Below, piece after piece: positions 14,741 through 53,934 of a stretch of DNA of 60,927 nucleotides. The position numbers were made by a program, and so were the translations under genes. Origin of the DNA: an uncultured Methanosarcinales archaeon (GTDB lineage Archaea > Nanobdellota > Nanobdellia > Woesearchaeales > JAGVZT01); the NCBI GenBank assembly GCA_964419615.1, contig CAYQPU010000004.1:1-60927 (forward strand), given 5' to 3'. Each line of letters starts with the position of its first letter. Position 1 is the first letter of the stretch. The notes beneath the pieces were generated by a model, which was given only the letters and a program-made list of their open reading frames with translations, made no database searches and was not told the DNA's origin.

Positions 14741-15358
14741 TTAATACTCAACACCCTTTCTTGCCTCAATACCTTTGTCAAAAGGGTGTTTGACATTCTT
14801 AACCTCGCTAACATAATCTGCAGCTTGTTTTAATTCTAAAGGGGCATTTCTTCCAGTAAGCACTAACTCAGTTGTTTTATGCTTATTTTTAATTAAATTA
14901 AGTACTTCCTGTAAATCAACAAGCTTTTCACTAATAGCTCCACAAATCTCATCTAAAATAATAAGATCATACTCTCCTGAACTACTTATATCCTTCGCAA
15001 TATTAAAACCAGTTCTAGCATGCATTTTTTCTGCTTCATCAATTGAAAAGCAATCTCTACACTCTCCACAATATTGATGATTCCTAACTTTATCTCCTTT
15101 TCCAAAGCCGGGTAGTTTCAACTGTTCTTGCTCTTTAATACAATCTTTTCCAAACTGATCCATCAAAATGTGCTCCTTCATAATATTTTTTGCACTAATA
15201 AGTTCACCAGTATATCCACCACCTTTAAGAAATTGAATAATGTAAGTTTTATAACCATGCCCAATAGCTCTAAAAGCTAAACCTAAAGATGCAGTGGTCT
15301 TACCTTTACCATCACCAGTATAAAGATGAACCAAACCAAGCTCTTTTTTATCCTCCAT
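14741..15358 (-). CDS. cobO: ATP:cob(I)alamin adenosyltransferase, CobA/CobO type, with Cys-rich insertion
   Basis: YTGDGKGKTTAS P-loop, QFLKG, YDLIILDEI, ELVLTGRNAP, ADYVSEV, KHPF..G..ARKGVEY. Confidence 0.95.
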   Translation of the reverse strand: MEDKKELGLVHLYTGDGKGKTTASLGLAFRAIGHGYKTYIIQFLKGGGYTGELISAKNIMKEHILMDQFGKDCIKEQEQLKLPGFGKGDKVRNHQYCGECRDCFSIDEAEKMHARTGFNIAKDISSSGEYDLIILDEICGAISEKLVDLQEVLNLIKNKHKTTELVLTGRNAPLELKQAADYVSEVKNVKHPFDKGIEARKGVEY

Positions 15359-40876: not shown

Positions 40877-41716
40877 TCACTTAAATCCTTTTAATCTTCT
40901 ATTCTCATCTAGATCCCCAACCATTTCCAAAGGTTCACCATACTCACAAACAATCCTATCACCTAGTCCAAACCTATACCAAACATGCTCTCCATCTACT
41001 CTCATAATACCTTCCCTTGTTTTTGAAACAAGCTCTAAATGTGTTGAGGGTACAAACTCTCCAATCTTGTCCCTAGAACCAGTAATAAAATAAACAAAAT
41101 CAGCATCCAAAGGTAAAACCTCTGATCCAAAGTTGTGCACTCCTCCAGTACTTCCAGAAGGAGTTGCAACAAACAAATCATAACAATCTCTAATCTCATG
41201 AAGCTTCCCCTCTTCAATAAGATCATGCCTAAAATTGCCTCTATTTTCGTGATAAACTAAAATATCATTAAGCACAAGTTCATCCAAAACCTTATCATTA
41301 AAAGTCAACTGTAATCTTTGTACCTTTGTTCTAGGAAAACATTCTAAACTATCCAAAACATCAGCGAACTCATAGGCATTACAGCATGTGTAAATACCTC
41401 TGCTTTTATCTGGATCAGAATTAATACCTAACAAAGGTATACCTCTAATAAAATGTCCAGCTTCAATAAAAGTTCCATCCCCACCAACAGTAACAATAAG
41501 ATCATAACTAGAAAGATCTGGTCTTTTGGATCTATGGAAAATATCAAACTTAACATTTGTGTTAGATAGGGTATTAACAACAGTCTCAAGAGATTTTTCA
41601 TGAGCATCATGACTTTTTAATAAAACAGGATTCTCTGCATAATCTCTTGTCTGTTTATCTGGTGATGATTTATAGTAGCTATGCAAACTATTCTTGTGCA
41701 AGACTAAGATTGTCAT
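40877..41716 (-). CDS. nadK: NAD kinase family protein (divergent)
   Basis: TVGGDGTFI, GINSDP, VLNDIL, VATPSGST, VDGE. Confidence 0.85.
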   Translation of the reverse strand: MTILVLHKNSLHSYYKSSPDKQTRDYAENPVLLKSHDAHEKSLETVVNTLSNTNVKFDIFHRSKRPDLSSYDLIVTVGGDGTFIEAGHFIRGIPLLGINSDPDKSRGIYTCCNAYEFADVLDSLECFPRTKVQRLQLTFNDKVLDELVLNDILVYHENRGNFRHDLIEEGKLHEIRDCYDLFVATPSGSTGGVHNFGSEVLPLDADFVYFITGSRDKIGEFVPSTHLELVSKTREGIMRVDGEHVWYRFGLGDRIVCEYGEPLEMVGDLDENRRLKGFK

Positions 41717-42270
41717 GCTGTCATCAACACCTCTAGTAGATCTTTATCATAAACCTGTTTGACCCGAGCATTACCTTCAATTCTTTCAAGGACTTTTAGT
41801 GTTCCAGCTGGAACATACTCTACCACGCTAAGACCATTATGCATCCTATGCCTAATATCAGTGCCAGATACATGCTTAAACCTTGGAAAATCTGAAGACT
41901 CAAAACCACGCTGCTCAAAATACTCTCTCTCACTTTCAGAAGGAGTATACACTCTATAGAATTCAGGAAATATATCCTTTAAAGACTCAAACCATTTATC
42001 ATAATCATGTAGGTCTGGAATGGGATAAATTGAAACTTGTTTTGTAACAATCTCTTCAACAGATTTTTCAACCATCTCTTTTCTTTCTTCAAATGTAAAT
42101 GGATTACGTTTCCAAGCCTCAACCAAACTCTTATTCTCATGGTCATATTGACTGCTTCCAATACCTATTAGAATCTCATCAATAGATTCATCCTCATCCA
42201 TGAATTTAATAACTTCCAAATGAGCTGTGTGAAAAGGTTGAAACCTTCCAACATATAATCCCCTGTTCAT
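41713..42270 (-). CDS. nadM: Nicotinamide/nicotinate mononucleotide adenylyltransferase
   Basis: GRFQPFHTAH, IGIGSSQ, NPFTFEER, SGTDIR. Confidence 0.92.
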   Translation of the reverse strand: MNRGLYVGRFQPFHTAHLEVIKFMDEDESIDEILIGIGSSQYDHENKSLVEAWKRNPFTFEERKEMVEKSVEEIVTKQVSIYPIPDLHDYDKWFESLKDIFPEFYRVYTPSESEREYFEQRGFESSDFPRFKHVSGTDIRHRMHNGLSVVEYVPAGTLKVLERIEGNARVKQVYDKDLLEVLMTA

Positions 42271-43661
42271 ATCAATACCTCCAATCTTTGCCTTACATCT
42301 ACTGCACATGGTCTTTTCAATGGATCTTTGTCTAGCATCTCATAGACCAATTCCTTTAATTCAGGATTAACATTCAAAACTTCAGAATCTCTGACAGGAC
42401 TATAGGCATGTGCAAGTCCATATTTTAACACCTCACTTTGCCTGCAATCTTCACCTTCTTTGAAATCAAAAAATTCAAAAGGATGTTCTCCAGTCAAAGT
42501 TTCATAAAGAACAATACCAAGCTGAAAAATATCTGAAGCCTTATAAGAAGTAAAACTTAAAACCATCTCTGGTGTCAAGTATCTTGGTGTGGACAATAAT
42601 GAATGAGCTTTTTCACCATGTTGTACCATACCAAAATCAAGTAATGTCAAATCTTCACAATGCACAATAATATTCTTAGGCTTTACATCCATGTAGATAA
42701 TATCTTGTTCGTGCAGATACTTCAAAACATCAGCTAAATCTCTAGCATAACTTATTGCTAATTCTTGTGAAAGCAAATTAGCTGGATCAATATGTTCAGT
42801 GAGTTCATGTCCTTGTGCAAACTCAAAGATCAAAAACTCTGTACCTTCATGGAAAAAACTACCATAATAACCCACAATATTTGGATGTTCAATTTGTTCT
42901 AAAATCTCTTTTTCTCTTGTTTGACCTTTAGGATCAGCATAATCTAGCTGAAACCTAAGTCTTTCTTTTAAAACTCGATCTCCATCTGGAGTGTGTATAG
43001 CACATAAAAAAGCAGAATTTGGAAAAAACCTATCTTCATCACCCTCTTGGATAACACCTAAAACCCTAGCACCATTTTTACAAGCATAATCTTCCACTAA
43101 ACTTAGATTCTGTTCTCTATTAGAGCTCTTTCTAATATTGTAATCAATCTTTGCCAAATGGATTAAATCAGGATTCTTTGTTTTCTTAGCAAGAAAATAT
43201 TTAATAGGAGTGTTACCTCCTCCAGTTGAAACCAATTCCTTAACATTTTCCTTTAGCACCTCAGTTGGATCAAGACCAATTTGTGAAATCTCATTTTTAA
43301 TCCTCTCAAAATCAACAGTTTGAATATAAAAACCATCTTCATCATGATAAAGAGGGATCATAGAAAATGATCTATCAAGTAGAAAGTCAAAATACTCATC
43401 AGGAGATGCAAGTGCTTTTACGACATTAATGTCTCCACCATACCATAATGCTACTTGTCTTAATTCATCAATTCTATCTTGATTACCTGATTTACTATAG
43501 TATTGCAAAGCTTTTTCCAAACTCAAGTTTAATAGATATGCTGTTCCTGCAAACTCAGACGATTGAGAATCATTAGAACTTAAGACAACCTGATCAATAC
43601 TCTCAAGACTAGCAACATCTCCAAGATCAAAAACCTGTTTCATTAATTCATTAAGTTTCAT
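42267..43661 (-). CDS. Hanks-type Ser/Thr protein kinase (non-RD) with ~200-aa unknown N-terminal domain
   Basis: RVLK, REKEIL..IEHPNIV, YMDVKPKN, LLDFG, TPRYLTPE, SDIFQLG, KRP. Confidence 0.92.
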   Translation of the reverse strand: MKLNELMKQVFDLGDVASLESIDQVVLSSNDSQSSEFAGTAYLLNLSLEKALQYYSKSGNQDRIDELRQVALWYGGDINVVKALASPDEYFDFLLDRSFSMIPLYHDEDGFYIQTVDFERIKNEISQIGLDPTEVLKENVKELVSTGGGNTPIKYFLAKKTKNPDLIHLAKIDYNIRKSSNREQNLSLVEDYACKNGARVLGVIQEGDEDRFFPNSAFLCAIHTPDGDRVLKERLRFQLDYADPKGQTREKEILEQIEHPNIVGYYGSFFHEGTEFLIFEFAQGHELTEHIDPANLLSQELAISYARDLADVLKYLHEQDIIYMDVKPKNIIVHCEDLTLLDFGMVQHGEKAHSLLSTPRYLTPEMVLSFTSYKASDIFQLGIVLYETLTGEHPFEFFDFKEGEDCRQSEVLKYGLAHAYSPVRDSEVLNVNPELKELVYEMLDKDPLKRPCAVDVRQRLEVLI

Positions 43662-44449
43662 TCTTCAAACTCATCTCTAAACATACTTATGCTTGCATTA
43701 GCGTACAATTTGCAAAGTGTTGTAATTGCATAAACAGAAGCATCATACTCCCTACCTGCAAGAAGAGTATTTTCGATAAACTCAATATCACATTCATCAT
43801 CAATAAAATCCAAAGCAGCATCACAAAAAATTGCAGCTTTTATGTCATACCTTGAATTAATTGTTGGCAGAACATCTTTTATCACTTCATTATTAATCTG
43901 ATCTACAACTAAAGCTGCAAGACTAATATAGTGACTTGGCACATCCCTAAGATTGTCAAAAGAACCTCCTGCAACCACATTAAGTCTATCATATCTCTCT
44001 TTACTCTCAGCTTCAGTGGATGGATCCAGGATGTTATTCATCAAGTATTGAGCAACAATATACTTTAGCACAAACTCTAGATTTGGATCAAGTTCTGGAT
44101 CTCTTCTCTCCATCTCATCCCCAAATTCAGCAATCCTTGCAAACATAGAAAAATCATCAAAGAAAACTGTGGCAGCATAATCCATCACTACAAAAGCTTT
44201 AAAAAAATCTTCTCTGGTAGTTTTTATAGGATTATTAATAGCCTCATCACTAACAAGTTTATCAATATAAAGAGCTTGTACTGGACCAAAGTTTAATGGA
44301 AAATCCTTGCTAGAGTCATCTGGTAGATTCTGTAAAGTATAACCAAACATTACTAGTTGATGAGTTTCAATCTCACCCAGGTCAATCTCTCTAATGTTTG
44401 TTTTTGTATTCTTGTTCTTTAATGCTGCAATTAAATCTATATCATTCAT
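43658..44449 (-). CDS. Hypothetical helical acidic protein with a DDxxD motif
   Basis: ATG 44449 overlaps the E1 stop; FFDDF and FIDDECD segments; family not established. Confidence 0.6.
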   Translation of the reverse strand: MNDIDLIAALKNKNTKTNIREIDLGEIETHQLVMFGYTLQNLPDDSSKDFPLNFGPVQALYIDKLVSDEAINNPIKTTREDFFKAFVVMDYAATVFFDDFSMFARIAEFGDEMERRDPELDPNLEFVLKYIVAQYLMNNILDPSTEAESKERYDRLNVVAGGSFDNLRDVPSHYISLAALVVDQINNEVIKDVLPTINSRYDIKAAIFCDAALDFIDDECDIEFIENTLLAGREYDASVYAITTLCKLYANASISMFRDEFEE

Positions 44450-45860
44450 TTTGTTCACCATACAAATGCCCCATTTTTTCCATCCAATCACTTTTGTGAG
44501 CTCTTGGTTTACATCCCCCTTGCATTGAGAAAACACCGAATCTAAGGTCCTCTCTAGTACTATACTTGATGATACCCTTCAATGGATCCTTACCATTTGC
44601 AAGCCTTATTGCCTCACCAACAAGAGCAGAACCCATTGTCTTATTTGTATTAATTACAGAGGCATCAGGTGCGTAAATGCAACTAGCAGGATTATAAGAT
44701 GCAAGAGCCATGTCATCAATACCAGTCTGGCAATCAAGGCATGCAGTTCTACCTGGAAACACAGTACTAACCTGACCACCACTAGTACTAGTACCAACAC
44801 TCAGATATGGAACACCATATTCATTGACTAAATAATTTAGCAAAGCTCTAGTTGCATGATTGTCAACACAATCCACAACCAAATCAATACCCTCAAATAG
44901 ATAATCAGAATCTAAATCTACTTTAGCGTCAATAGCAGTAATGTTTGCTTCAGGTTTAATCCTAAGCAATTCTCTTCTTAAGGCCTCAGACTTCTTATGA
45001 CCAACAGAATTATGGAAAAATACTTGTCTGTTTAGATTATGATCTTCAACAACATCATAATCAACTATGATTAATTCACCAACTCCAGCTACAACAAAAC
45101 CCTTTGCAGTAAAATTACCTGAAGCACCTGCTCCAATCTGTAAAACAGTCAAATCAGAAATATCAGTTGAAGTAAGAGGAGAATTTCTCTTCCAATCAAA
45201 TCTACTTGCAGACTCCAAATTATAAACAATAATATCCTCAAGTTCCTCCTCTCTTTCAAGAGGCATTACTAATTTTCTTGCCTCATCAACACCAAATCCT
45301 GCAATAAATTGACTAGGAATCACTCCCTGAGGTTCTCCAAAAAAATCATGAAACAAAGCATTTTGAAAAATCTCCATGCTTGAGTCAAGAGTATAAACCG
45401 CACCAGCTGAAACTTTCTCAGATGCAACCAAACTAACAACTGGAATATCAAAATCTGCTGCATATTCCAAAACATTAAGCTTTGATATAGGGTTATTTGT
45501 TGCTTCAATAATAACATCAGGATCACCAATGAGAGTAACATTCCTACCTTTAGCAACATCTATGTTATGAGCTCTAACTTCAACATCTGGATTTATTTTC
45601 TGGGCAAACTCTGCAATTGACTTTGCTCTGACCCTTCCTGGTGAATGCACATAACCCTGTGTGAAATCTCTTTCCTGTGCAATTCCATGTCCATATATTT
45701 CTATTTGACCAAAACCAAGAGCTGCTAAAGTGACTGCACAGTCGTTGGCTAAAGCATCTCTGCCAATCAAAGCAACCTTGGCATCACTTAATAGCTCTTG
45801 ATCCCATCCATCTATTAGTTCTTGTCTATTGTATCTATTAACCTGGTTCATATTATTCAC
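44442..45860 (-). CDS. Ubiquitin-like activating enzyme E1 with two ThiF domains (inactive + active adenylation)
   Basis: N-domain RYNRQ with degenerate IGRDALA. C-domain GAGASG, DYDVVEDHNLNRQ, DCVDN, TACLDC and PASC (candidate catalytic Cys). Confidence 0.9.
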   Translation of the reverse strand: MNNMNQVNRYNRQELIDGWDQELLSDAKVALIGRDALANDCAVTLAALGFGQIEIYGHGIAQERDFTQGYVHSPGRVRAKSIAEFAQKINPDVEVRAHNIDVAKGRNVTLIGDPDVIIEATNNPISKLNVLEYAADFDIPVVSLVASEKVSAGAVYTLDSSMEIFQNALFHDFFGEPQGVIPSQFIAGFGVDEARKLVMPLEREEELEDIIVYNLESASRFDWKRNSPLTSTDISDLTVLQIGAGASGNFTAKGFVVAGVGELIIVDYDVVEDHNLNRQVFFHNSVGHKKSEALRRELLRIKPEANITAIDAKVDLDSDYLFEGIDLVVDCVDNHATRALLNYLVNEYGVPYLSVGTSTSGGQVSTVFPGRTACLDCQTGIDDMALASYNPASCIYAPDASVINTNKTMGSALVGEAIRLANGKDPLKGIIKYSTREDLRFGVFSMQGGCKPRAHKSDWMEKMGHLYGEQNE

Positions 45861-47392
45861 CTTGTTTTGTATCTCCTCAACTTATTGCCACTCAGTAAGT
45901 GAGATTCAATCAAACCATCAACTTGATGAGCATCCTCTTGGTATAAAACTGGAAAATCTGTGAGAAAAGTAACAAAATTCTCGTCTAAATTACCTCTAAA
46001 AAGATCATCAGTCAACTGATAACAGACATAAGATCTTTGTGGAAGCAAGAAGAAATCTCTTACACCGGCTTTTGGTCTTCGTTTTGAAAATTTTACTGCG
46101 TGTGAAAAATCACAGTAATCAGTTCCAACCATCTTATCAACAATGTTGGCAACAAATTTTCTATACTTATGATCATATCTCTTATCAAAATCAATATGCT
46201 CCCCCATTGCATACTCAGCCATTGCCCACTGTACTTCTTGGGCAAGAAAGTAACAATCTTCTAACCTGGAAGCTTGATCTTTTCCCATGGCAACAGCAGT
46301 ATCAGGATCAATTAGAAAATTCTGAACAAATTCCAAAAAGACTGTATTCCTAAGCTCAAATATCTCAAGTTTTTCTCCTGAATTCAATTCTTGCATTGAG
46401 GTATAGCTAAACCTCTCCATAAAATCAGCAATAAACTCTTCTTCTGACAATGGGTCATTTAGATTAGCAAATTCTTCGTTTACTAAACTCTCATAGAGCA
46501 TTTCCTCAGGATTAGCACCTAAAATGCTCGTAATCATATGAGAATGCTCACCACCACTAGAAATATAATCAATAGCACACCCAAAAAATTGTCTTCCTAG
46601 TTCCTGATACTCTTTTGAGAAATCCGGACCTCTAACTCTTTCTCTGTAAAATACTCCACTAATTGAGATCTTATTTCTAATATCCTTTTCAATATTTGTA
46701 AGTGTATATGATACACTTTCTGGATCGTTAAAAACAAACATCCTTGGTCTAGTGGGACTATTTCGCAAAAATTCACCATTGACTTTTGTTTTACTCATAT
46801 GCTCTAAGTAAAACTCTTCTCTAACATTTACAACAAGGCTGTATGCAAATGGATCTCTCTCAATTTTCCTTAGAATTCTAGCATCATCACTAACCTGTAC
46901 ACCAGACAAAGTATAATTATCAAACTCAAGCAAATCATCTTCAGTAGTAAACACAGCTTCACTGGTCTTAAACATGGTGTGTGGGGCAATTCCATTTAGA
47001 ACCTTTTGAAAGTTCCTCACATCAGTATCAGAATGAAAGGTACTCATTGTTCCATGTGAGTGCCACCAACCAGCTATCTCGTAATTCATACTATCAATAA
47101 TTCTAACCGAACGAGCTACTCCCTCTGGACTAACTCTAACATAAGCACTCTCTGCAGACTGATTATCGGCTAGGTAAACATCGGTTATAACATCATCTAA
47201 GGAGCCTTTTGGTTTAAGCAAGTAACCATAAGCTTCCATCGGTTGGTTGGACATCTCTGTAATTAATTTTGAATACAAAAAAGCCTTATTCAGAGCAGCA
47301 CTAGAAATATGAAATTCTCTAGATACATCAAATTCAGTTTGTTGCTGAGCCAATTGATTTAATATTTGTAATCTTTGTAATCTTTGTGTCAT
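45857..47392 (-). CDS. JAB/JAMM metallopeptidase with ~300-aa C-terminal extension
   Basis: PMEAYGYL and GWWHSHGTMSTFHSDTD form a complete E..HxH-x7-S-x2-D motif. Confidence 0.9.
   Translation of the reverse strand: MTQRLQRLQILNQLAQQQTEFDVSREFHISSAALNKAFLYSKLITEMSNQPMEAYGYLLKPKGSLDDVITDVYLADNQSAESAYVRVSPEGVARSVRIIDSMNYEIAGWWHSHGTMSTFHSDTDVRNFQKVLNGIAPHTMFKTSEAVFTTEDDLLEFDNYTLSGVQVSDDARILRKIERDPFAYSLVVNVREEFYLEHMSKTKVNGEFLRNSPTRPRMFVFNDPESVSYTLTNIEKDIRNKISISGVFYRERVRGPDFSKEYQELGRQFFGCAIDYISSGGEHSHMITSILGANPEEMLYESLVNEEFANLNDPLSEEEFIADFMERFSYTSMQELNSGEKLEIFELRNTVFLEFVQNFLIDPDTAVAMGKDQASRLEDCYFLAQEVQWAMAEYAMGEHIDFDKRYDHKYRKFVANIVDKMVGTDYCDFSHAVKFSKRRPKAGVRDFFLLPQRSYVCYQLTDDLFRGNLDENFVTFLTDFPVLYQEDAHQVDGLIESHLLSGNKLRRYKTR
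46699..46719. promoter_or_regulatory. Intragenic copy of the NrtR-like operator
   Basis: TAAGTGTA-TATGA-TACACTTT, with a perfect AGTGTA-N5-TACACT core. Confidence 0.4.
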
Positions 47393-47399
47393 TTTATTC

Positions 47400-48818
47400 T
47401 CACTCCATTAATTCATTTAATACAACAAGACCTCTTCTATCCACTTGTTCTCTTGTTAACCAATCTGAGAAATGGTTTTTGTCAAGTCTGTTGTATGGAT
47501 TATTCCCGGATCTATATCCTGTCATTAGTGTTTTTGTGCCCTGGTCTAACAATCTTGCAACTTTTTCCTCAGAATTTAAACGATGAGTGTTTGAAGCAGT
47601 ACTCCAACTACCAAGGCAAATTTTTTGCATTGATGAACTGCCAGACAAGAATGGATGTGCGTAGCTGTTTATAACAATTGGATTACCTACATCAAAACCA
47701 CTTCCACTTTGAGAAATTCTTACAGCAACCTCAGCAGGTCCAAAAGGAACATAACAATCCTGACTACTTACATGAGGACTCTTTAGTGCATATGGTGGAG
47801 TTCTAACAAAAGCATAATAACCTCCATTTAATATCTTAAATCCTGCATCATTAACAACATATTCCCGTCTATTGGCTAATTGTTCCAACCTTTGTCTTTG
47901 CTCAGCAATCTTGTGTAGTTCAAGACTTTGATATTCATCATTTTCAATTGCAGCAATTTTAATTCTTTTCTCAAGCAAATTTCCATGAAGCCTTTCAACA
48001 TCATCTGCACTTCCAACAAGAATTGGAAAATACAACCTATCATCTAGGAAGACAGATGAAGTATTAACTAAGTTTTTTAATTTTGAATATAATCTTCTAT
48101 CAATATCGAATCTTTCTGTTGTAAGTAATGAAGCTGCTTCATCTTTACTTGCTGTGGTTGGAAATCGTCTAAATGCAGCACAAGCACTCGGTGTCATTTC
48201 CTCCTGAAATTCTTCTCCAAGTTCAGGTACAGTAAACAACATGTAAACTCTGTCATCAACTATTAAGAAAGGATTGGTACCCAAGGCCTGTGTTAGGGCA
48301 GAATAATCTCCTGAAGCATTTGTAACAGGTCTATACTCATTTTCAATTCTTGAAACTAAATCCCTTTTTACCCGAGCCAGCTCCCGTAATACAGATAAAG
48401 GAACTTCAACTGCACCTTCTGGTTGTTCATAAACAATATCTTCACCTAGTAACTCAAGCAATCTTTGATCACGATTCTCATCAGTAATTAATGGTAAAAC
48501 TCTATCCGCCAAAAATGCTAAAGTTCTGTTATTACTTATTAGCTGATTGATTCTATCCCTTGACATGTAATCTTGTCTTGACAAAGTACGCATGAATCTT
48601 GTTTGAAAAGCAACAATAGCTTCCTGATTTCTTTCCATATACAGTGACTCTAATTCATCAATCTCCATAACAGGCTCAACAGAATAATCTATACCTGCAA
48701 GATCTAGAAAATCAACCCCATTATCTCCTAATGTTGTTTGAAAAAGTGTATCATTGTAAATAATTAAAGGTGTTTCTAAATCAAATAAATTTGTTCCAGG
48801 TAATGTGCTTGATCTCAT
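47400..48818 (-). CDS. E2 (UBC-fold)-like conjugating protein with long N-terminal region
   Basis: ATG 48818 with GAGGA SD; C-terminal YAHPFLSGSSSMQKICLGSW resembles the E2 HP..ICL active site; preceded by a coiled-coil segment. Confidence 0.68.
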   Translation of the reverse strand: MRSSTLPGTNLFDLETPLIIYNDTLFQTTLGDNGVDFLDLAGIDYSVEPVMEIDELESLYMERNQEAIVAFQTRFMRTLSRQDYMSRDRINQLISNNRTLAFLADRVLPLITDENRDQRLLELLGEDIVYEQPEGAVEVPLSVLRELARVKRDLVSRIENEYRPVTNASGDYSALTQALGTNPFLIVDDRVYMLFTVPELGEEFQEEMTPSACAAFRRFPTTASKDEAASLLTTERFDIDRRLYSKLKNLVNTSSVFLDDRLYFPILVGSADDVERLHGNLLEKRIKIAAIENDEYQSLELHKIAEQRQRLEQLANRREYVVNDAGFKILNGGYYAFVRTPPYALKSPHVSSQDCYVPFGPAEVAVRISQSGSGFDVGNPIVINSYAHPFLSGSSSMQKICLGSWSTASNTHRLNSEEKVARLLDQGTKTLMTGYRSGNNPYNRLDKNHFSDWLTREQVDRRGLVVLNELME

Positions 48819-48835
48819 TTTATTCCTCAGTTTTG

Positions 48836-48883
48836 AAAAAAAAATTGCCAGAAGAAAACCAGCAGCTAGCGGTTTTAATCTGG
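48836..48883 (-). terminator. Hairpin plus T9 tract between the Ubl and E2 genes
   Basis: Stems CCAGA/TCTGG (48848-52 with 48879-83) and AAAACC/GGTTTT (48855-60 with 48871-76), then A9 at 48836-44 (T9 on the minus strand). Confidence 0.55.
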
Positions 48884-48900
48884 ACAAAGTAAAACTAATA

Positions 48901-49368
48901 TTACCTACCTCCTTCCTCATGCGTTAGTATTGCAAGTTTTAGGTAATTGAAAGGAGCTGCACCTGCAATCTCTTCCTGATAAAACCTATCACTTTGCGAT
49001 ACTGTTTGAGTTAGGGTGCTTCCACCTGTAGGTTGTCTCTCATTGTACATAACCATGTGGTTATGTTGACCCAAACGCTCAACAACGTTATCTTTAATCG
49101 TTACTTCAGATCCTTGTATTGAGGTTTCATTGATCATGTAATCAACAATTCCTGCAATACTCAAGTTACCGTCCTCCATAACGTCTGGTGGAATTGTTCT
49201 AGTGATATACGAACTAGACAACCCACCTCCGAGCTCAACAATTGTTTTTAACTCCGGGTCAAATTCGGGTGTTATCTCTGGAAGTACATCTACTTCCGTT
49301 TCAATCGGTTCTACATCTGTACTTAATCTTCTTTGATATGTACTAGATGATGAATCCATACTTACCAT
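48901..49368 (-). CDS. Ubiquitin-like (beta-grasp) modifier candidate, C-terminus ...LKLAILTHEEGG-R
   Basis: C-terminal GG plus one residue after a hydrophobic strand; first gene of the Ubl-E2-JAB-E1 run; strong GGAGGT SD. The fold is inferred. Confidence 0.62.
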   Translation of the reverse strand: MVSMDSSSSTYQRRLSTDVEPIETEVDVLPEITPEFDPELKTIVELGGGLSSSYITRTIPPDVMEDGNLSIAGIVDYMINETSIQGSEVTIKDNVVERLGQHNHMVMYNERQPTGGSTLTQTVSQSDRFYQEEIAGAAPFNYLKLAILTHEEGGR

Positions 49369-49823
49369 TTTTTTACCTCCACATTTATTATCTGATGACT
49401 AATATGTCCCTTCATGACCAGATAATCTGTTAGTATCTGCTCATGATCAAATGCAAACTGGTTCTTTCCAAGCATATCTACAACATCATCAATTGTATAG
49501 AACTTGGCAGCTTTTGCATCACTACCACTCCTGATTATTCCGCGAGCTTTTGCAGTGTATACCACACTAACAATCCTAGCTCTTGGATCTCTGCTTGGTT
49601 GAGAATAAATACCAAACAATTTAGGAGTGGAAATTTCTAAACCAATCTCTTCCCATGTTTCCTTCCTTGCATTCTCTTCTGTTGTTGTATATGGTTCAAG
49701 AATACCTCCTGGAATAGCTTTTTTACCAGCAGGATTATAGCGGTCAATCAAAACCAAACCATCTACACCATTGCTAGAATATTCAATTATAACATCTGTA
49801 GCAACATACAAAGGTTCGTTCAT
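49362..49823 (-). CDS. Nudix hydrolase, ADP-ribose pyrophosphatase-like
   Basis: AIPGG..ARKETWEEIGL (partly degenerate box), SQPSRDPR, SDAK, AFDH. Confidence 0.82.
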   Translation of the reverse strand: MNEPLYVATDVIIEYSSNGVDGLVLIDRYNPAGKKAIPGGILEPYTTTEENARKETWEEIGLEISTPKLFGIYSQPSRDPRARIVSVVYTAKARGIIRSGSDAKAAKFYTIDDVVDMLGKNQFAFDHEQILTDYLVMKGHISHQIINVEVKKW

Positions 49824-51619
49824 GGTAGCACCTCAATTCTTCTTTTAATATGAGAATAAACATCATTGATGTCATAGCCACCAAGGTAATGGTTAATGAT
49901 TGTCTCTCTATTACTAAAACCTCTACTACGGGGAGAAATTATTACTATTGGAGCTCCTTGAGCACTTTTGAAGACAGACCGTCTTGAATTATCAAATGCC
50001 TCCCAAGTCTCATTGCTAAACTGCTGGGCGGAGTACTTTTCATAAACAGATTTTCCTTCAAAGTCAAGAGGGAAAAAATCCTGAGTTAATGTTCCTTGTT
50101 GAAAATCTGCAATAATCTCCAAAGGACCTTTTCTATTTCTTATTAGCTCAGCATCAATACCGGATCTAACCCAATAATCAATAGGATCTTCTTTAGCATC
50201 AGCAAGTTCAGCCATTGGCTTAATAGTACCATCAAATAATGGCTGAGGAATAACCTCATCACCAAATCTTTCATTTATGTAATCAGCAAATTGATAAAGC
50301 TCAACTTTAGTAAGATCACCAATTAAAGCATGCACACCAATACTACCAATATCGTGAAAAGTAGCCCAACCTTCAACAATTTCAGTATGGTTACCAGTAG
50401 CAACTATTCCAGACTTAAAATGATGATACGCACCAATACCTTGAACTGTTCTCAATACAGCTTGAATACATGCTTTTCCAACAAGGCTCGGTTCTTTTCC
50501 AAAAGCATTTTTATGTGACTCAACAACACTCTGGTATGGTTCTTGAGTAGAGTTCCAATGCAGCTTAACACTTAACTTATCAGCAAGATACTGCGCAAAA
50601 CCTTTTGTAATATCACCATTATCCTCAGTTGGATTGGTTATAAGGACAGTATGATCAGCACCCATTGCATCATAAACAATTGTTGCAACAATAGCACTAT
50701 CAATACCACCACTTACATGAACTTGAGCGTTTGGAATACCTATAACATCAAAGATTTCCTTTTGCTCAAACACAAGTGCATCATAAATCTCTTGATACTT
50801 AGTAAAAGAAGGTAATTTAGCAGCAGATCCTTTACCTGTTAATGGTACATCCACAACACAATAATCTGATTGAAATCTTTCTAATTCTACAAGTGGATTT
50901 CCTTCACTGTCAAAAGCAAAACTTCCACCATCATAAATAAGGATATTCTTAACAATATCCCCAACACCAACACCATTAGTCATCACTACAGGAATACCTT
51001 TGTTGGCTGCATGACCACCAAACAAATCCCTTCTGATCTCTTGTTTGTCATAGTGAAAGTAAGATTGATTAGGACTAACAATCAAATCTGCACCAAGATC
51101 CTTCAGTTCTTGTATTATATCTCTCTCATGATTTTGATGCCAAGCATCTTCACATATAGACACTCCCAGATTGATAGTCTCTCCATTTATTTGTACAGGT
51201 ATAACCTTTGTTACTTCACCTGATGTAAAGTACTTCCTATCTTCATGATGCTCTCCATTTGCCAGCAATACTTTGTCATAAGTGTCAATAACCTTTCCAC
51301 CTTGAATAACAGCAGCAGAGTTTGCAATTCGAAGGTCTCCATTGACTTTTTTCCCAAGCTGATCAACAAAGCCAACAATAGCGACCATATCATCAGGTAC
51401 TTCTTTTGCTATGATTTCCTCAAGCATTGAAATATTGTATTGTACGAAAGATTCTTGCTCAAAAAGAGCTCCGCAACAATAACCTGTAATAGCAGTTTCA
51501 GGAAACACCACAATATCTGCATTATCTTCCTTTGCCCATCTAATATTGCGGACTATTTGCTCAGTGTTTCCCACCAAATCTCCGGTTACAGGTTTTGTTT
51601 GTGCTAGAGCTACTTTCAT
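49820..51619 (-). CDS. nadE: Glutamine-dependent NAD+ synthetase
   Basis: Nitrilase triad FPE / YDK / ICED plus synthetase domain SGGIDS, TGNHTE, DLTK, PMAEL. Confidence 0.93.
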   Translation of the reverse strand: MKVALAQTKPVTGDLVGNTEQIVRNIRWAKEDNADIVVFPETAITGYCCGALFEQESFVQYNISMLEEIIAKEVPDDMVAIVGFVDQLGKKVNGDLRIANSAAVIQGGKVIDTYDKVLLANGEHHEDRKYFTSGEVTKVIPVQINGETINLGVSICEDAWHQNHERDIIQELKDLGADLIVSPNQSYFHYDKQEIRRDLFGGHAANKGIPVVMTNGVGVGDIVKNILIYDGGSFAFDSEGNPLVELERFQSDYCVVDVPLTGKGSAAKLPSFTKYQEIYDALVFEQKEIFDVIGIPNAQVHVSGGIDSAIVATIVYDAMGADHTVLITNPTEDNGDITKGFAQYLADKLSVKLHWNSTQEPYQSVVESHKNAFGKEPSLVGKACIQAVLRTVQGIGAYHHFKSGIVATGNHTEIVEGWATFHDIGSIGVHALIGDLTKVELYQFADYINERFGDEVIPQPLFDGTIKPMAELADAKEDPIDYWVRSGIDAELIRNRKGPLEIIADFQQGTLTQDFFPLDFEGKSVYEKYSAQQFSNETWEAFDNSRRSVFKSAQGAPIVIISPRSRGFSNRETIINHYLGGYDINDVYSHIKRRIEVLP

Positions 51620-51623
51620 TTTA

Positions 51624-52451
51624 TTATTCTCTTAGATACTCGGCAGTTGTAATGTAATTGATACCAACTTGTTGACACATTCTTCTTGCGGCGTCATCTG
51701 CACTTTGTTCAGTATCAAAACCAAGTGGTTCATACACAAGATGAGTTGCGGCATCTGCGATTATGTTGATATCAGCTTTTGGGAACATTTGTCTAATCCC
51801 ACTTCCAGTTTGATATACACAAATACCCATGACAACTCCTGTGATATCAAACGATAATTCTTCACCCTGTCCATACATCTCTTTGAGTAAAGTAAAAACA
51901 TTCATCTCAGCAGAAGGTACACCCGAAACTTCACCTAAGAAATCAGTTGCTTGCGTGGCTGAGCCATTAAACATGTGCTTTGCATTTATCACATACTCAA
52001 TTTTGCCTTCCAAGAAATCCTCTGGATCTAATCTTTGAACACCAAAAGTATCCTCAACATCTTCAAAAGAAAAGGCAGGTCTTGGCTTACCACCTTCATA
52101 ATTCTGAAAAAACACATGTCTTGGAACAATTAAGCCAGAACTTTTTCCTTGAACTGATTGGAGTAATTTATCTGTCAATTGTGGACTTGTTGTCTGTCCA
52201 GGTTGCACATCCAATTCTTCTAAATTATATTCATCACCTTTAACAAGATTATGCGCAGGGTATAATCCTCCATTTGAAATGAACTCTGAGCTATCCCTTG
52301 GATGAACATCAGTTAAGAATAAAGTAAGATCAGCTCTTTCATTTATTCTAACTGCATTATTTTTCTGCTCTTCTGTTGTTCCACAATAAAAACTCCCATT
52401 TTCATCAACGAAACTTTTTCCCCAATCAACTAACACATTTATTGTTTTCAT
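51624..52451 (-). CDS. pncA: Nicotinamidase (isochorismatase family)
   Basis: VDW (Asp), TDVH, YPAH, AKH (Lys), GVVMGICV (Cys); lies between pncB and nadE. Confidence 0.8.
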   Translation of the reverse strand: MKTINVLVDWGKSFVDENGSFYCGTTEEQKNNAVRINERADLTLFLTDVHPRDSSEFISNGGLYPAHNLVKGDEYNLEELDVQPGQTTSPQLTDKLLQSVQGKSSGLIVPRHVFFQNYEGGKPRPAFSFEDVEDTFGVQRLDPEDFLEGKIEYVINAKHMFNGSATQATDFLGEVSGVPSAEMNVFTLLKEMYGQGEELSFDITGVVMGICVYQTGSGIRQMFPKADINIIADAATHLVYEPLGFDTEQSADDAARRMCQQVGINYITTAEYLRE

Positions 52452-52467
52452 TTTTCCTCACCTTTAT

Positions 52468-52488
52468 ATATTGTATATTTTACACTAT
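52468..52488. promoter_or_regulatory. NrtR-like operator upstream of pncA
   Basis: ATATTGTA-TATTT-TACACTAT; one mismatch from a perfect 8-bp arm palindrome; lies in the 42-nt pncB-pncA spacer. Confidence 0.7.
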
Positions 52489-52493
52489 TTAAG

Positions 52494-53846
52494 TTAAAAA
52501 GTTTTAACCCATGGTTTTCTGTTTTGATATTTCTCAAACAGTTCAGTTTTTATTTCATCAAGACCAAAAGAGTGATCTATATCATACTTCTTTGTAACTT
52601 GTAGTTGTTTTAATTCAGAAGGCAGCATGCAAACACTATCAAGGGCATAATTCCTAATCTCATTCAAATCCCTTTTCTGAACAACTCTTTCTCCGCCCTC
52701 TACCATTAACTCAAGTAAAGATTCACCTTCTACAAATTCATCTTCAAGCGCAATAACATCTTTGTGCATGTGATCATCTTGATAAAATCTATACACCTGT
52801 TTTTTTCCAGGCAAAGTAACTTTACCTGGAGAAAGTTTCATCTTTGGACCTTGCTCATCTTCAACTAATTTGTAAACACCAGAAATCGCTGAAACTGGTT
52901 TTGCAGTAATCATCTCAGTTCCAACACCATAACCATCCATTGGACAACCTGCATCCACAAAATCAGCAATCTTGTACTCATTTAGATCACTGCTAACAAA
53001 AACATCAACATATTCAAGATCTTCACTATTTAGAATTGCCCTAACTCTTTCAGAGAGATAGGCAAGATCACCTGAATCAAGCCTAACAGCTTTCAACCTA
53101 TGACCTTGCTCTTCCATCTCTCTTGCTACAATGGCAGCTTTTCTTGCTCCTTCAAGAGTATTATATGTATCAATCAACAAAACACAATCATCAGGAAATG
53201 TTTTTGCATAAGCTCTAAATGCATCAATCTCATCTTCATAACTCATAATATAACTATGGGCTTGAGTTCCACTAATTGGAATACCATACTCCATACCAGC
53301 TTTAACATTACTTGTTGCAACTGCTCCTCCAATATAGGTAGCTCTTGCACCTTTAACAGCTGCATCCTCTTCCTGAGCTCTTCGAAGTCCAAACTCAACA
53401 ACAGCTGCTCCCTCAGCAGCATTAACAACCCTACTGGTTTTTGAAGCAATCATTGTCTGAAAATTTATCATATTAAGAAGAGCAGTTTCTAGGAACTGAG
53501 CCTCTGTTCTTGAAGCAGTAACCCTCATAATTGGTTCATTAGGAAAAACAACTGTACCTTCTTTTACAGAATAAATTTCTCCTTCAAACCTGAAATCATC
53601 TAAAAAGTCTAAAAACTCCTCATCAAACAAATTCTGTTCTCTCAAATAATCAATATCCTTATCTGAAAAATCAATAGAAGTTGCATAATCAATTGCATCT
53701 TCAATTCCAGCAGCAATAAAATAACCCCAATCTTCTGGCAGCTTTCTAATAAACAAATCAAAAGTTGCAGTATCATCTTTTAAGTCATCAACATAGGCAG
53801 CCATCATTGTCAGCTGGTACAAATCCGTTAGCATTGTTTTACTCAT
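52494..53846 (-). CDS. pncB: Nicotinate phosphoribosyltransferase
   Basis: LTDLYQLTM, EFGLRRAQ, GTQAHS, LIDTY, VRLDSGD, YGVGT. Confidence 0.96.
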   Translation of the reverse strand: MSKTMLTDLYQLTMMAAYVDDLKDDTATFDLFIRKLPEDWGYFIAAGIEDAIDYATSIDFSDKDIDYLREQNLFDEEFLDFLDDFRFEGEIYSVKEGTVVFPNEPIMRVTASRTEAQFLETALLNMINFQTMIASKTSRVVNAAEGAAVVEFGLRRAQEEDAAVKGARATYIGGAVATSNVKAGMEYGIPISGTQAHSYIMSYEDEIDAFRAYAKTFPDDCVLLIDTYNTLEGARKAAIVAREMEEQGHRLKAVRLDSGDLAYLSERVRAILNSEDLEYVDVFVSSDLNEYKIADFVDAGCPMDGYGVGTEMITAKPVSAISGVYKLVEDEQGPKMKLSPGKVTLPGKKQVYRFYQDDHMHKDVIALEDEFVEGESLLELMVEGGERVVQKRDLNEIRNYALDSVCMLPSELKQLQVTKKYDIDHSFGLDEIKTELFEKYQNRKPWVKTF

Positions 53847-53934
53847 CTTTATCACTTATTGTATTATTCACACTTAGTATAACCAAAAAAATATCCAGTC
53901 ATTTTTTGACTGGATCATATATAATCTGGTTACC

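What the first reader, a model, noticed from the sequence alone, without database searches (positions are those of the whole stretch)
44442..45860. E1 has eukaryote-like inactive + active adenylation domains in one chain
Seen: domain 1 has the Arg-finger RYNRQ but IGRDALA in place of GxGxxG and no NLNRQ; domain 2 has GAGASG, DxDxVExxNLNRQ, CxxC and SC. Established: eukaryotic Uba1 and type II BilD use an IAD-AAD pseudo-dimer, whereas ThiF/MoeB/UbaA are homodimers. Inference: an archaeal example relevant to the origin of eukaryotic E1 architecture.
Basis: partly seen in the sequence, partly recalled or inferred. Interest (0 to 1): 0.68.

Follow-up and report, generated by a model that had tools for sequence, protein, structure and literature searches.

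The report
Two-domain E1 in archaeal ubiquitin-like operon
This gene from a tiny marine DPANN archaeon encodes a ubiquitin-activating-type enzyme built, like the eukaryotic ones, from a dead and a live copy of the same domain in one chain, and it belongs to a widespread, apparently undescribed four-gene ubiquitin-like tagging cassette.

Summary
ORF 44442-45860 (-) encodes a 472-aa protein with two ThiF-fold domains. The N-domain keeps the RYNRQ arginine-finger helix but has lost the ATP and Mg motifs. The C-domain keeps every catalytic residue, plus an invariant Cys on a short, disordered crossover loop. The AlphaFold2 model (pLDDT 87, pTM 0.89) superposes over both domains on UBA7, Uba1 and Uba6.

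It is not an isolated oddity. It is the last gene of a cassette in the same order as bacterial Bil operons: a small protein ending in GG, a conserved-Cys "E2-like" protein, a JAMM peptidase, then the E1. I found the cassette in about 45 DPANN archaeal and about 30 bacterial genomes (mainly Desulfobacterota). At least 186 clusters at 50% identity score E<=1e-30.

It differs from BilD:
- there is no CYS domain;
- the inactive domain is MoeB-like;
- sequence similarity to BilD is almost undetectable.

No curated model or paper found describes the cassette. The link to eukaryotic E1 origins is not supported by sequence: neither domain is specifically eukaryote-like, and bacteria carry the family too. 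The E2 fold of the partner protein was not confirmed. Verdict: a new variant of a known kind, of moderately high interest.

The parts
44442..45860 (-). E1 gene, 472 aa: N-terminal inactive plus C-terminal active ThiF-fold adenylation domains in one chain
   Evidence: ORF. Pfam ThiF matched twice. AF2 pLDDT 86.8, pTM 0.89. Foldseek top hits UBA7, Uba1 and Uba6 over both domains, TMq 0.62-0.72.
45246..45839 (-). Inactive adenylation domain (IAD), res 8-205
   Evidence: Pfam ThiF E 6.9e-15 on its own. hhalign to the C-domain 99.4%. ATP and Mg motifs lost family-wide.
45822..45836 (-). RYNRQ, the arginine-finger helix of the IAD (R9, R12, Q13)
   Evidence: Translation. R9, R12 and Q13 invariant in the 13-sequence alignment. 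R12 in 125/136 representatives. Role inferred from MoeB and BilD Arg9.
45747..45767 (-). IGRDALA, the degenerate remnant of the Rossmann GxGxxG loop in the IAD
   Evidence: Translation. Aligned to GAGASG of the C-domain by hhalign.
44445..45215 (-). Active adenylation domain (AAD), res 216-472
   Evidence: Pfam ThiF E 6.3e-40. PDB profile hits Uba1 AAD 1.7e-34 and MoeB 6.8e-33.
45117..45134 (-). GAGASG nucleotide-binding loop of the AAD
   Evidence: G243 and G245 in 136/136, G248 in 133/136.
45024..45062 (-). DYDVVEDHNLNRQ: ribose-binding Asp residues and phosphate-binding Arg/Gln of the AAD
   Evidence: D267 136/136, D269 135, N275 135, R278 135, Q279 136.
44862..44864 (-). Asp333, predicted Mg2+-binding Asp of the AAD
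   Evidence: 136/136 conserved. The equivalent IAD position is Thr/Asn.
44730..44741 (-). CLDC (C374, C377), first half of a probable structural Zn site at the start of the crossover loop
   Evidence: C374 in 125/136, C377 in 111/136. Zn role inferred from MoeB, SUMO/NEDD8 E1 and BilD.
44679..44681 (-). Cys394, candidate catalytic (thioester) cysteine on the short crossover loop
   Evidence: 135/136 conserved. Lies in the only internal segment with pLDDT below 50 (391-396). No inserted CYS domain.
44496..44513 (-). C450-KPRA-H455, C-terminal half of the probable Zn site (CxC in most relatives; Cys...His here)
   Evidence: C450 in 120/136; the second position is Cys in 107/136 but Ala here, with His455 next to it. 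Inference.
48901..49368 (-). Small protein (155 aa) ending ...THEEGG-R: candidate ubiquitin-like modifier with a one-residue tail after Gly-Gly (GG codons 48907-48912)
   Evidence: GG is the only invariant pair in 37 homologues from archaea and bacteria; tails are 0-17 aa. Beta-grasp fold not tested. No Pfam or PDB sequence hit.
47400..48818 (-). 'E2-like' protein (472 aa from the likely ATG; the ORF could extend to 48920). C-terminal domain has Y-x-HPF (47649-47657) and an invariant Cys (47616-47618)
   Evidence: Present in 62 of 78 related loci, always between the GG protein and the JAB. Cys invariant in 50 sequences. AF2 pLDDT 81.7. No Foldseek, Pfam or PDB hit, so the E2 fold is unconfirmed.
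45857..47392 (-). JAMM/MPN+ metallopeptidase (511 aa) with an intact HSHx7SxxD motif (47021-47062) and a ~350-aa C-terminal extension. Its stop overlaps the E1 start
   Evidence: Pfam Prok-JAB E 3.4e-8. Motif and junction read directly. Found in 61 related loci.
43658..44449 (-). Conserved 263-aa protein of unknown function ('X292'). Its ATG overlaps the end of the E1 gene
   Evidence: Only in the sub-clade nearest the window. No Pfam, PHROG, PADLOC or NCBIfam hit. Start inferred from homologues.
42267..43661 (-). Ser/Thr protein kinase (464 aa; kinase domain res 245-457) that closes the cassette
   Evidence: Pfam Pkinase E 2e-39. Co-occurs with the cassette in 11 archaeal loci.

Best explanation
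The gene encodes a monomeric, pseudo-dimeric E1 (Ubl-activating enzyme) that serves the three genes upstream of it.

Proposed cycle:
1. The JAMM peptidase trims the residue(s) after the Gly-Gly of the 155-aa modifier.
2. The C-terminal domain of the E1 binds ATP-Mg and adenylates the exposed Gly. The N-terminal domain no longer binds ATP. It acts as the obligatory dimer partner and supplies the RYNRQ arginine finger to the single active site.
3. Cys394 on the flexible crossover loop takes the modifier as a thioester.
4. The modifier passes to the invariant Cys of the neighbouring 472-aa 'E2-like' protein, whose large N-terminal part would choose targets.
5. The JAMM peptidase can reverse the mark.

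Shown here: the two ThiF folds, the asymmetric motif loss, the conservation, the Uba1-like relative placement of the domains in the model, and the conserved four-gene order.

Inferred: catalysis, the thioester relay, the E2 role, the targets, and the meaning of the kinase and NAD-salvage neighbours.
For: - Two independent ThiF matches, homologous to each other at 99.4% probability.
- Family-wide asymmetry of catalytic residues with retention of the N-terminal Arg helix.
- AF2 model with pTM 0.89, whose best PDB matches are single-chain eukaryotic E1s aligned across both domains.
- Invariant Cys394 in a disordered crossover loop.
- Cassette of GG protein, conserved-Cys protein, JAB and E1 in the same order and strand in about 45 DPANN and about 30 bacterial loci.
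- The gene order equals that of Bil operons, for which the mechanism is experimentally established.
- Intact JAMM motif, and overlapping stop/start codons that suggest translational coupling.
- C-terminal tails after GG in most homologues, but none in some bacterial ones.
Against: - No biochemistry, and the model coordinates could not be inspected, so the reach of R9/R12 into the active site is inferred.
- The E2 assignment rests on an HPF...Cys motif, topology and gene position only. Foldseek, Pfam, PDB-sequence and hhalign tests found no E2 relative.
- The modifier has no detectable sequence similarity to known beta-grasp proteins.
- Archaeal SAMP/UbaA systems conjugate without an E2, so an E2 is not strictly required.
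- About half of the family's N-domains keep a GxGxx(G/A)-like loop (52 of 136), so some may still bind a nucleotide.
Confidence: 0.72

Rival explanations
1. The cassette is a Bil-like antiviral (or other conflict) system, not a housekeeping modifier pathway. The E1 works as described, but its purpose is to tag virion or invader proteins.
For: - Same gene order as BilABCD.
- Patchy distribution across DPANN and unrelated bacteria, suggesting horizontal transfer.
- Two or three cassettes per small genome and multiple E2-like paralogues.
- The kinase resembles kinases of defence systems in PADLOC and NCBIfam (mad6, PD-T4-6), though below their cut-offs.
Against: - In the window and six related loci, the cassette is embedded in a conserved NAD-salvage gene cluster, not an obvious defence island.
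- No PADLOC model hits the modifier, the E2-like protein or X292.
- The kinase hits are generic Pkinase similarity.
Confidence: 0.2
2. The E1 activates the GG protein as a sulfur carrier (MoaD/ThiS/SAMP/Urm1-like thiocarboxylate), not for protein conjugation, or in addition to it.
For: - Closest sequence relatives of both domains are MoeB, ThiF, Uba4 and UbaA.
- The catalytic Cys sits on the crossover loop, as in these enzymes.
Against: - No rhodanese domain or sulfurtransferase in the cassette.
- All NCBIfam ThiF, MoeB and UbaA equivalog cut-offs are missed.
- The constant presence of a JAMM peptidase and a conserved-Cys partner, and of AAA+ unfoldases in many loci, points to protein tagging.
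- A pseudo-dimer with one site is not seen in known sulfur-carrier E1s (established knowledge).
Confidence: 0.08
3. One reading: this archaeal E1 is a direct relative or ancestor-grade form of the eukaryotic canonical E1, so its IAD is orthologous to eukaryotic IADs.
For: - The best structural matches are UBA7, Uba1 and Uba6.
- The architecture is intermediate: pseudo-dimer present, Cys domain absent.
- The E2-like partner keeps a His-Pro-x motif upstream of the Cys, as classical E2s do, unlike BilB.
Against: - The IAD profile prefers active MoeB, Uba4 and ThiF over eukaryotic IADs.
- The AAD shows no eukaryote-specific affinity.
- The IAD HMM scores its own family's AADs (16-65 bits) no better than it scores MoeB (73 bits), so the age and source of the duplication are unresolved.
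- The family occurs in bacteria as well.
- The only Asgard hit in the genome scan, a Heimdallarchaeota locus, encodes a single-domain E1.
Confidence: 0.1
4. The N-domain is not merely a scaffold. It retains nucleotide binding and acts as an allosteric or second catalytic site.
For: GxGxx(G/A) is present in 52/136 and the first Asp in 73/136 of family N-domains.
Against: - NLxRQ is found in 0/136 N-domains, and the Lys and Mg-Asp equivalents are absent.
- The window copy has only the first Gly (IGRDALA) and Gly in place of the Asp.
Confidence: 0.06

Closest known systems
BilD, the E1 of bacterial Type I/II BilABCD (Bacterial ISG15-like) operons (Chambers et al., bioRxiv 10.1101/2023.09.26.559546; Ye et al., bioRxiv 10.1101/2024.11.21.623953)
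   Same: - Prokaryotic single-chain IAD-AAD pseudo-dimer with one active site and an Arg supplied by the IAD.
- Probable Zn site formed by two Cys in the crossover loop plus two ligands near the C-terminus.
- No FCCH or UFD.
- Identical operon order Ubl-E2-JAB-E1.
- The Ubl carries a short tail after the conserved Gly that a JAMM peptidase removes.
   Different: - No ~80-aa helical CYS domain: the conserved Cys sits on a ~20-residue loop.
- The IAD is still clearly MoeB-like with RYxRQ, whereas the family IAD HMM scores BilD's IAD at 1.9 bits.
- The AAD HMM scores BilD's AAD at only 23.5 bits, against 146 for an archaeal UbaA-like E1.
- The partner protein has HPF upstream of its Cys, not the Cys...His (CEHH) pattern.
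- The hosts are DPANN archaea and Desulfobacterota, not mostly Rhizobiaceae.
Canonical eukaryotic E1s (Uba1, UBA6, UBA7; SAE1-UBA2; NAE1-UBA3)
   Same: - IAD plus AAD arrangement.
- The best Foldseek matches span both domains (8oif_A E 7e-23, TMq 0.72).
- Active-site residues of the AAD are conserved.
   Different: - Half the size.
- No FCCH/SCCH catalytic-Cys domain, no UFD, no coiled-coil insert.
- Cys on the crossover loop, as in non-canonical E1s.
- 12-15% sequence identity.
- No specific sequence affinity of the IAD for eukaryotic IADs.
Homodimeric MoeB/ThiF/Uba4/UbaA-type E1-like enzymes
   Same: - Closest in sequence for both domains (MoeB 1.5e-19 to the IAD and 6.8e-33 to the AAD).
- CxxC plus a crossover-loop Cys.
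- No extra catalytic domains.
   Different: - Two fused, non-equivalent copies instead of a symmetric homodimer.
- Below every curated NCBIfam cut-off for ThiF, MoeB and UbaA.
- No rhodanese domain.
- Accompanied by JAMM and conserved-Cys partner genes.
Caldiarchaeum/Asgard-type archaeal Ub-E1-E2-RING-Rpn11 clusters (Nunoura 2011, PMC3082918; Hennell James 2017, PMC5654768)
   Same: Archaeal operon encoding a modifier, an E1, an E2 candidate and a JAMM peptidase.
   Different: - Per the review PMC11354881, those E1s have a distinct ~60-aa Cys-containing domain.
- Those clusters include a recognisable UBC E2 and a RING E3. Here there is no RING, the E2 is unrecognisable by sequence, and the E1 is a tandem.
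- Not compared directly by sequence here.

Membership tests
Pfam ThiF family (PF00899) / E1-like superfamily | Match to the family profile above the gathering score | tested here: met
   Whole protein 188.5 bits. N-half alone 55.3 bits and C-half alone 137.3 bits, against a cut-off of 28.1.
Canonical (Uba1-type) E1 | Inactive plus active adenylation domains packed as a pseudo-dimer | tested here: met
   Predicted only: AF2 pTM 0.89, and Foldseek alignments to UBA7, Uba1 and Uba6 span both domains with TMq 0.62-0.72. Asymmetric motif loss.
Canonical (Uba1-type) E1 | Catalytic Cys carried on a separate Cys domain (FCCH/SCCH) inserted in the adenylation domains | tested here: not met
   Only about 16 residues separate CLDC from Cys394. 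The secondary-structure map shows no inserted domain.
Canonical (Uba1-type) E1 | [quoted passage not shown] | tested here: not met
   The chain ends about 45 residues after the last Rossmann-associated helix, with two short strands and one helix.
BilD (Bil Type I/II E1) | IAD-AAD-CYS architecture with a mobile helical CYS domain | tested here: not met
   IAD-AAD is present but the CYS domain is absent.
BilD (Bil Type I/II E1) | Detectable sequence homology to BilD across the protein | tested here: not met
   hhalign against E. aridi BilD aligns only 81 columns around the AAD P-loop, at 70% probability. IAD HMM 1.9 bits, AAD HMM 23.5 bits. Type I BilD was not available for comparison.
Bil-type operon | Gene order Ubl - E2 - JAB peptidase - E1 on one strand | tested here: met
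   Window 49368 to 44442, and about 60 related loci. The order is as described. E2 and Ubl identities are inferred.
MoeB/ThiF/UbaA equivalogs (NCBIfam) | Score above the curated equivalog cut-off; single active domain forming a homodimer | tested here: not met
   Best is TIGR02356 at 149.9 bits against a cut-off of 275; UbaA 115 against 450; MoeB 113 against 377. Two domains in one chain.
JAMM/MPN+ metallopeptidase (neighbour gene) | E...HxHx7SxxD metal and catalytic motif | tested here: met
   HSHGTMSTFHSDTD at 47021-47062, with an upstream Glu (EAYGY). Pfam Prok-JAB 33.8 bits against a cut-off of 25.
UBC/E2 fold (neighbour gene) | UBC-like alpha/beta fold with the catalytic Cys after an HPN-type loop | tested here: inconclusive
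   An invariant Cys lies 11-13 residues after a near-invariant HPF. The model topology is helix, beta-meander, loop with HPF...C, short helix, long helix. Against this, Foldseek's best E is about 1 and there is no Pfam, PDB or hhalign match to UBE2D2 or BilB.
Ubiquitin-like beta-grasp modifier (neighbour gene) | Beta-grasp fold ending in an exposed Gly(-Gly) | tested here: inconclusive
   The C-terminal GG is invariant in 37 homologues. No significant Pfam or PDB sequence hit; one member matches ThiS-like at E 0.014.

The most novel reading that the evidence does not exclude
The cassette (GG modifier, HPF-Cys E2-like protein, JAMM peptidase, tandem E1) is a third, previously undescribed lineage of complete prokaryotic ubiquitin-like conjugation systems. 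It would be housekeeping, not defensive, in genome-reduced DPANN archaea. In one clade it is wired to a Ser/Thr kinase and to NAD salvage enzymes, and elsewhere to AAA+ unfoldases.

Its E1 would preserve an evolutionary intermediate in which the homodimer had already become an IAD-AAD pseudo-dimer but the catalytic Cys had not yet moved onto a separate domain. That would show the order of steps by which canonical E1s were built.
Probability: 0.2. Interest if true: 0.85.

Novelty: new variant of a known kind. Interest (0 to 1): 0.62.

Why it matters
Until 2023, single-chain IAD-AAD E1s were considered a eukaryotic hallmark, and BilD then showed that bacteria have them. This family adds a second, sequence-independent prokaryotic example.

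Three features make it useful:
- It is common in DPANN archaea.
- It lacks the Cys domain.
- Its inactive domain is still recognisably MoeB-like, with the arginine finger intact.

Whether the pseudo-dimer evolved once or repeatedly, and whether asymmetry came before the Cys domain, can therefore be tested with small, tractable proteins.

At the system level, two or three complete cascades in ~1-Mb symbiont genomes point to regulatory protein tagging in organisms for which I found no such pathway described. So do the recurrent links to a kinase, to NAD salvage and to AAA+ unfoldases.

Tried and rejected
- **Phage origin.** tblastn of the E1 against 50,697 phage records found only single-domain ThiF hits covering 40% or less of the query. 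Together with the archaeal housekeeping genes in the window, I dropped a viral origin for the window.
- **Membership of BilD.** Tested with the published E. aridi sequence and rejected at the sequence level.
- **E2 fold of the 506/472-aa protein.** Every test was negative: Pfam on 50 members, a PDB profile search, hhalign against UBE2D2 and BilB, and AF2 plus Foldseek on the full-length model. The excised C-terminal domain could not be searched alone.
- **Deeper homologue search for the E2-like protein.** Word-indexed searches returned only two proteins.
- **Beta-grasp identity of the modifier.** Pfam and PDB profile searches were negative.
- **Domain-wise phylogeny.** Not run. Eukaryotic IAD and Type I BilD sequences could not be obtained, and at 16% IAD/AAD identity a distance tree would not be informative. 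HMM score comparisons were used instead, and they do not resolve the origin of the duplication.
- **Literature.** Seven full-text searches found no description of a DPANN or Desulfobacterota tandem E1. Two Aravind-group papers were not held. Iyer et al. 2006, Table 1 rows 6a-6e, does not list this cassette.
- **Expression.** Only one 188-nt metatranscriptome contig matched. That is too little to claim expression.
Full report
**1. The observation**

The finding's coordinates are exactly one ORF on the minus strand (44442-45860, GTG start, 472 aa). A public gene call for the same protein starts three codons later (P0001, 469 aa). All the quoted motifs are present at the expected places: RYNRQ (res 9-13), IGRDALA (32-38), GAGASG (243-248), DYDVVEDHNLNRQ (267-279), CLDC (374-377) and SC (393-394).

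Pfam ThiF matches the protein in two stretches. When the halves are scanned separately, each passes the gathering score. The N-half (res 15-159) gives E 6.9e-15 and the C-half (res 232-427 of the full-length protein) E 6.3e-40. A profile of the N-halves of 13 family members aligns to a profile of their C-halves with 99.4% probability over 185 columns at only 16% identity. That alignment places G-R-D-A-L-A opposite G-A-G-A-S-G, a Gly-His-Gly stretch opposite Asp-Tyr-Asp, and a gap opposite NLNRQ.

**2. Is the N-domain really inactive, and is this family-wide?**

An exhaustive HMMER search of 1.84 billion representatives found 186 clusters at E<=1e-30. Nearly all of the best 150 are full-length two-domain proteins of 430-530 aa. 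I aligned 136 of them.

| Feature | C-domain | N-domain |
|---|---|---|
| P-loop | G243 and G245 136/136, G248 133/136; GxGxxG in 133 | first Gly (G33) in 134/136; GxGxxG in 19; GxGxx(G/A) in 52 |
| NLxRQ | 126/136 (N275 135, R278 135, Q279 136) | 0/136 (relaxed form 2/136) |
| Asp residues | D267 136, D269 135 | first Asp in 73/136 |
| Lys290 | 136/136 | no equivalent |
| Mg-binding Asp (D333) | 136/136 | Thr/Asn at that position |
| Crossover-loop Cys394 | 135/136 | not applicable |
| N-terminal Arg helix | largely decayed to R-F-x | R9 91, R12 125, Q13 107 |

This is the pattern expected if the N-domain's only remaining catalytic contribution is the arginine finger. In MoeB-type dimers and in BilD, that finger is supplied in trans to the partner's ATP site (established knowledge; BilD Arg9). 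About half of the family's N-domains keep a GxGxx(G/A)-like remnant (52 of 136) and the first Asp, so residual nucleotide binding in some members cannot be excluded. The window's copy is among the more decayed.

**3. Structure**

AlphaFold2 with the 13-sequence alignment gave mean pLDDT 86.8 and pTM 0.89. The only internal segment below pLDDT 50 is 391-396, which is the loop carrying Cys394.

Foldseek against the PDB returned UBA7 (8oif_A, E 7e-23, TMq 0.72), followed by dozens of Uba1 and UBA6 entries with TMq 0.62-0.68. The alignments are about 570-615 columns long, so they span both domains at once. A TMq above 0.6 for a two-domain query means the relative placement of the domains matches the IAD-AAD pseudo-dimer. 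I could not inspect coordinates, so the position of R9/R12 is an inference.

There is no inserted Cys domain and no UFD. Only about 16 residues separate CLDC from Cys394, and the chain ends about 45 residues after the last core helix. Most relatives have CxxC plus a C-terminal CxC, a probable Zn site like those of MoeB, SUMO/NEDD8 E1 and BilD. The window protein has C374, C377, C450 and His455 instead of the fourth Cys.

**4. Surroundings: a four-gene cassette**

Upstream on the same strand, with overlapping or near-abutting junctions, lie three genes:
- **A 155-aa protein ending ...THEEGG-R** (48901-49368).
- **A 472/506-aa protein** (47400-48818 or 48920) with no database match.
- **A 511-aa JAMM peptidase** (45857-47392; Pfam Prok-JAB; intact HSHx7SxxD).

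Downstream lie a conserved unknown protein (43658-44449) and a Ser/Thr kinase (42267-43661).

A scan of one genome per GTDB species returned 80 loci. About 45 are from Woesearchaeota, Nanoarchaeota, Pacearchaeota and Aenigmatarchaeota MAGs. About 30 are from Thermodesulfobacteriota/Desulfobacterota, Methylomirabilota and Binatia. A few loci carry other labels, and one of them, a Heimdallarchaeota hit, proved to be an ordinary single-domain E1 next to an 81-aa Ubl.

In these loci the order small protein, large protein, JAB, E1 is kept on one strand. Clustering of all neighbouring ORFs shows E1 in 78 loci, the large protein in 62, the JAB in 61 and the small protein in at least 40.

The small protein always ends in (Q/H/D)EGG followed by 0-17 residues, and GG is the only invariant pair in 37 sequences. 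The large protein has an invariant Cys 11-13 residues after a near-invariant Y-x-HPF.

This order is the same as Ubl-E2-JAB-E1 in BilABCD operons. There the JAB peptidase trims the Ubl tail, and the E1 and E2 form thioesters.

Variations on the core cassette:
- Bacterial versions add a ClpX/HslU-like AAA+ ATPase and a ~180-aa protein between the large protein and the JAB.
- Seven DPANN loci have a classic AAA ATPase just upstream.
- Some DPANN MAGs carry two or three cassettes, and some loci have two to four paralogues of the large protein.

**5. What is not established**

The E2 identity of the large protein is an inference. Pfam on 50 members, a PDB profile search, and hhalign against UBE2D2 and against BilB all gave nothing significant. 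An AF2 model (pLDDT 81.7, pTM 0.59) had no Foldseek match better than E about 1.

The topology of its C-terminal domain is compatible with a UBC/RWD-like fold bearing extra strands, but that is not a test. The order is long helix, beta-meander, loop with HPF...Cys, short helix, long helix. A His/Cys dyad enzyme of another kind remains possible.

All homologues carry the name 'hypothetical protein'.

**6. Relation to known E1s**

The family is not close to BilD. hhalign of the family alignment against E. aridi BilD aligns only 81 columns around the AAD P-loop, at 70% probability.

| HMM (bits) | BilD same domain | E. coli MoeB | Uba4 | Heimdall UbaA-like E1 | Human UBA2 |
|---|---|---|---|---|---|
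| Family IAD | 1.9 | 72.8 | 62.9 | 58.9 | 19.0 |
| Family AAD | 23.5 | 110 | 93 | 146 | 101 |

(All values.)

Against the whole PDB, the IAD profile ranks MoeB (1.5e-19), Uba4 and ThiF above eukaryotic IADs (UBA7 1e-11, SAE1 1e-9, NAE1 2.5e-7). The AAD profile ranks Uba1 AAD (1.7e-34) and MoeB (6.8e-33) together.

The IAD HMM scores the family's own AADs at 16-65 bits, no better than it scores MoeB. So neither a recent internal duplication nor a shared origin with eukaryotic IADs or BilD's IAD is indicated.

No NCBIfam model (June 2026) reaches its cut-off for the E1, and none hits the other cassette proteins. The operon classes 6a-6e of Iyer et al. 2006 do not include this cassette. Class 6d, the nearest, has an E2-like protein that lacks the classical His and has a His after the Cys, plus a JAB with a special N-domain and an extra helical protein. 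Seven full-text searches found no description of this family. Subscription literature is not covered.

**7. Host and context**

The window is cellular and archaeal. It carries deoxyhypusine synthase, RtcA, RNase J, a MoxR-VWA pair and three tandem RNR paralogues. No tRNA gene was found in it. GC content is about 33%. Near-identical DNA occurs in marine and seawater metagenomes.

One 188-nt metatranscriptome contig matches the 3' part of the E1 gene. This is weak evidence of transcription.

In the window and in six related loci whose E1s are 37-43% identical to the window's, the cassette plus X292 and the kinase is inserted in an NAD salvage cluster. That cluster comprises NAPRT, NadE, NUDIX, NMNAT and NAD kinase in the window; the related loci retain NMNAT and, in some, NUDIX or NAPRT. 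At that divergence the conserved linkage suggests a functional connection, but its nature is unknown.

**8. Verdict**

The mechanistic reading, a pseudo-dimeric E1 with one active site, is well supported by sequence, conservation and a confident model.

The evolutionary reading is only partly supported. The gene is archaeal, and it is an interesting intermediate-grade architecture: pseudo-dimer without a Cys domain. But the same family is bacterial too, and no sequence signal ties it specifically to eukaryotic E1s.

Relative to published Bil systems, it is a new variant of a known kind, embedded in what appears to be an undescribed and widespread Ubl cassette.

Noticed in passing
window 15348-21147 (-): Three ribonucleotide reductase large-subunit genes in tandem (686, 565 and 682 aa; 50-54% identical to each other). 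The middle one lacks the ATP-cone. This is unusual for a small DPANN genome.
   Followed up: partly
window 40877-42309 and 49362-53855 (-): A complete Preiss-Handler NAD salvage set flanks the Ubl cassette on both sides: NAPRT, glutamine-dependent NadE, NUDIX, NMNAT and NAD kinase. Related loci keep part of it around the cassette: NMNAT in L001, L002, L005, L007, L009 and L037, with NUDIX and NAPRT in only some of them. L001 also has a nicotinamidase.
   Followed up: partly
L044 5341-7158 (and 23 other bacterial loci): Bacterial versions of the cassette carry a ClpX/HslU-like AAA+ ATPase (PF07724) and a ~180-aa protein between the E2-like gene and the JAB. Seven DPANN loci (e.g. L013 1492-3000) have a classic AAA (PF00004) gene just upstream of the modifier. 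This hints at coupling of tagging to unfolding.
   Followed up: partly
L011, L013, L014; MAGs JACRKG01, DATDYQ01, CAYNQH01, JABJCP01, CAZJUI01, CAZGQD01: Some loci encode two to four paralogues of the E2-like protein beside one E1. Several DPANN MAGs hold two or three separate cassettes.
   Followed up: no
L078 7749-8972: A Heimdallarchaeota locus has an 81-aa Ubl ending TEGG-LEY directly followed by a single-domain 325-aa ThiF-type E1 with a C-terminal extension. Its N-terminal helix (DDRYNRQQLIPDWNQ) closely resembles that of the window's inactive domain.
   Followed up: partly
window 43658-44449 (-): A conserved protein of unknown function is translationally coupled to the E1 (its ATG overlaps the E1 stop region). 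It is found only in the sub-clade that also has the kinase. No hit in Pfam, PHROGs, PADLOC or NCBIfam.
   Followed up: partly
window 21263-23426 (-): A MoxR-type AAA ATPase followed by a VWA-domain protein, a classic MoxR-VWA pair, about 20 kb from the cassette.
   Followed up: no
window 4029-6010 (-): Deoxyhypusine synthase sits next to a PLP-dependent Orn/DAP/Arg decarboxylase (a hypusine/polyamine pair). This supports an archaeal host.
   Followed up: no
window 44515-44702: A single 188-nt contig from a seawater metatranscriptome (run X8) matches the 3' part of the E1 gene at 100% identity. DNA runs holding the region are marine or seawater metagenomes.
   Followed up: yes
window 48819-48920 (-): The longest ORF of the E2-like gene starts inside the end of the modifier gene. 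Homologues and the public gene call indicate the real start is the ATG at 48818. The extra 34 codons are probably not translated.
   Followed up: yes
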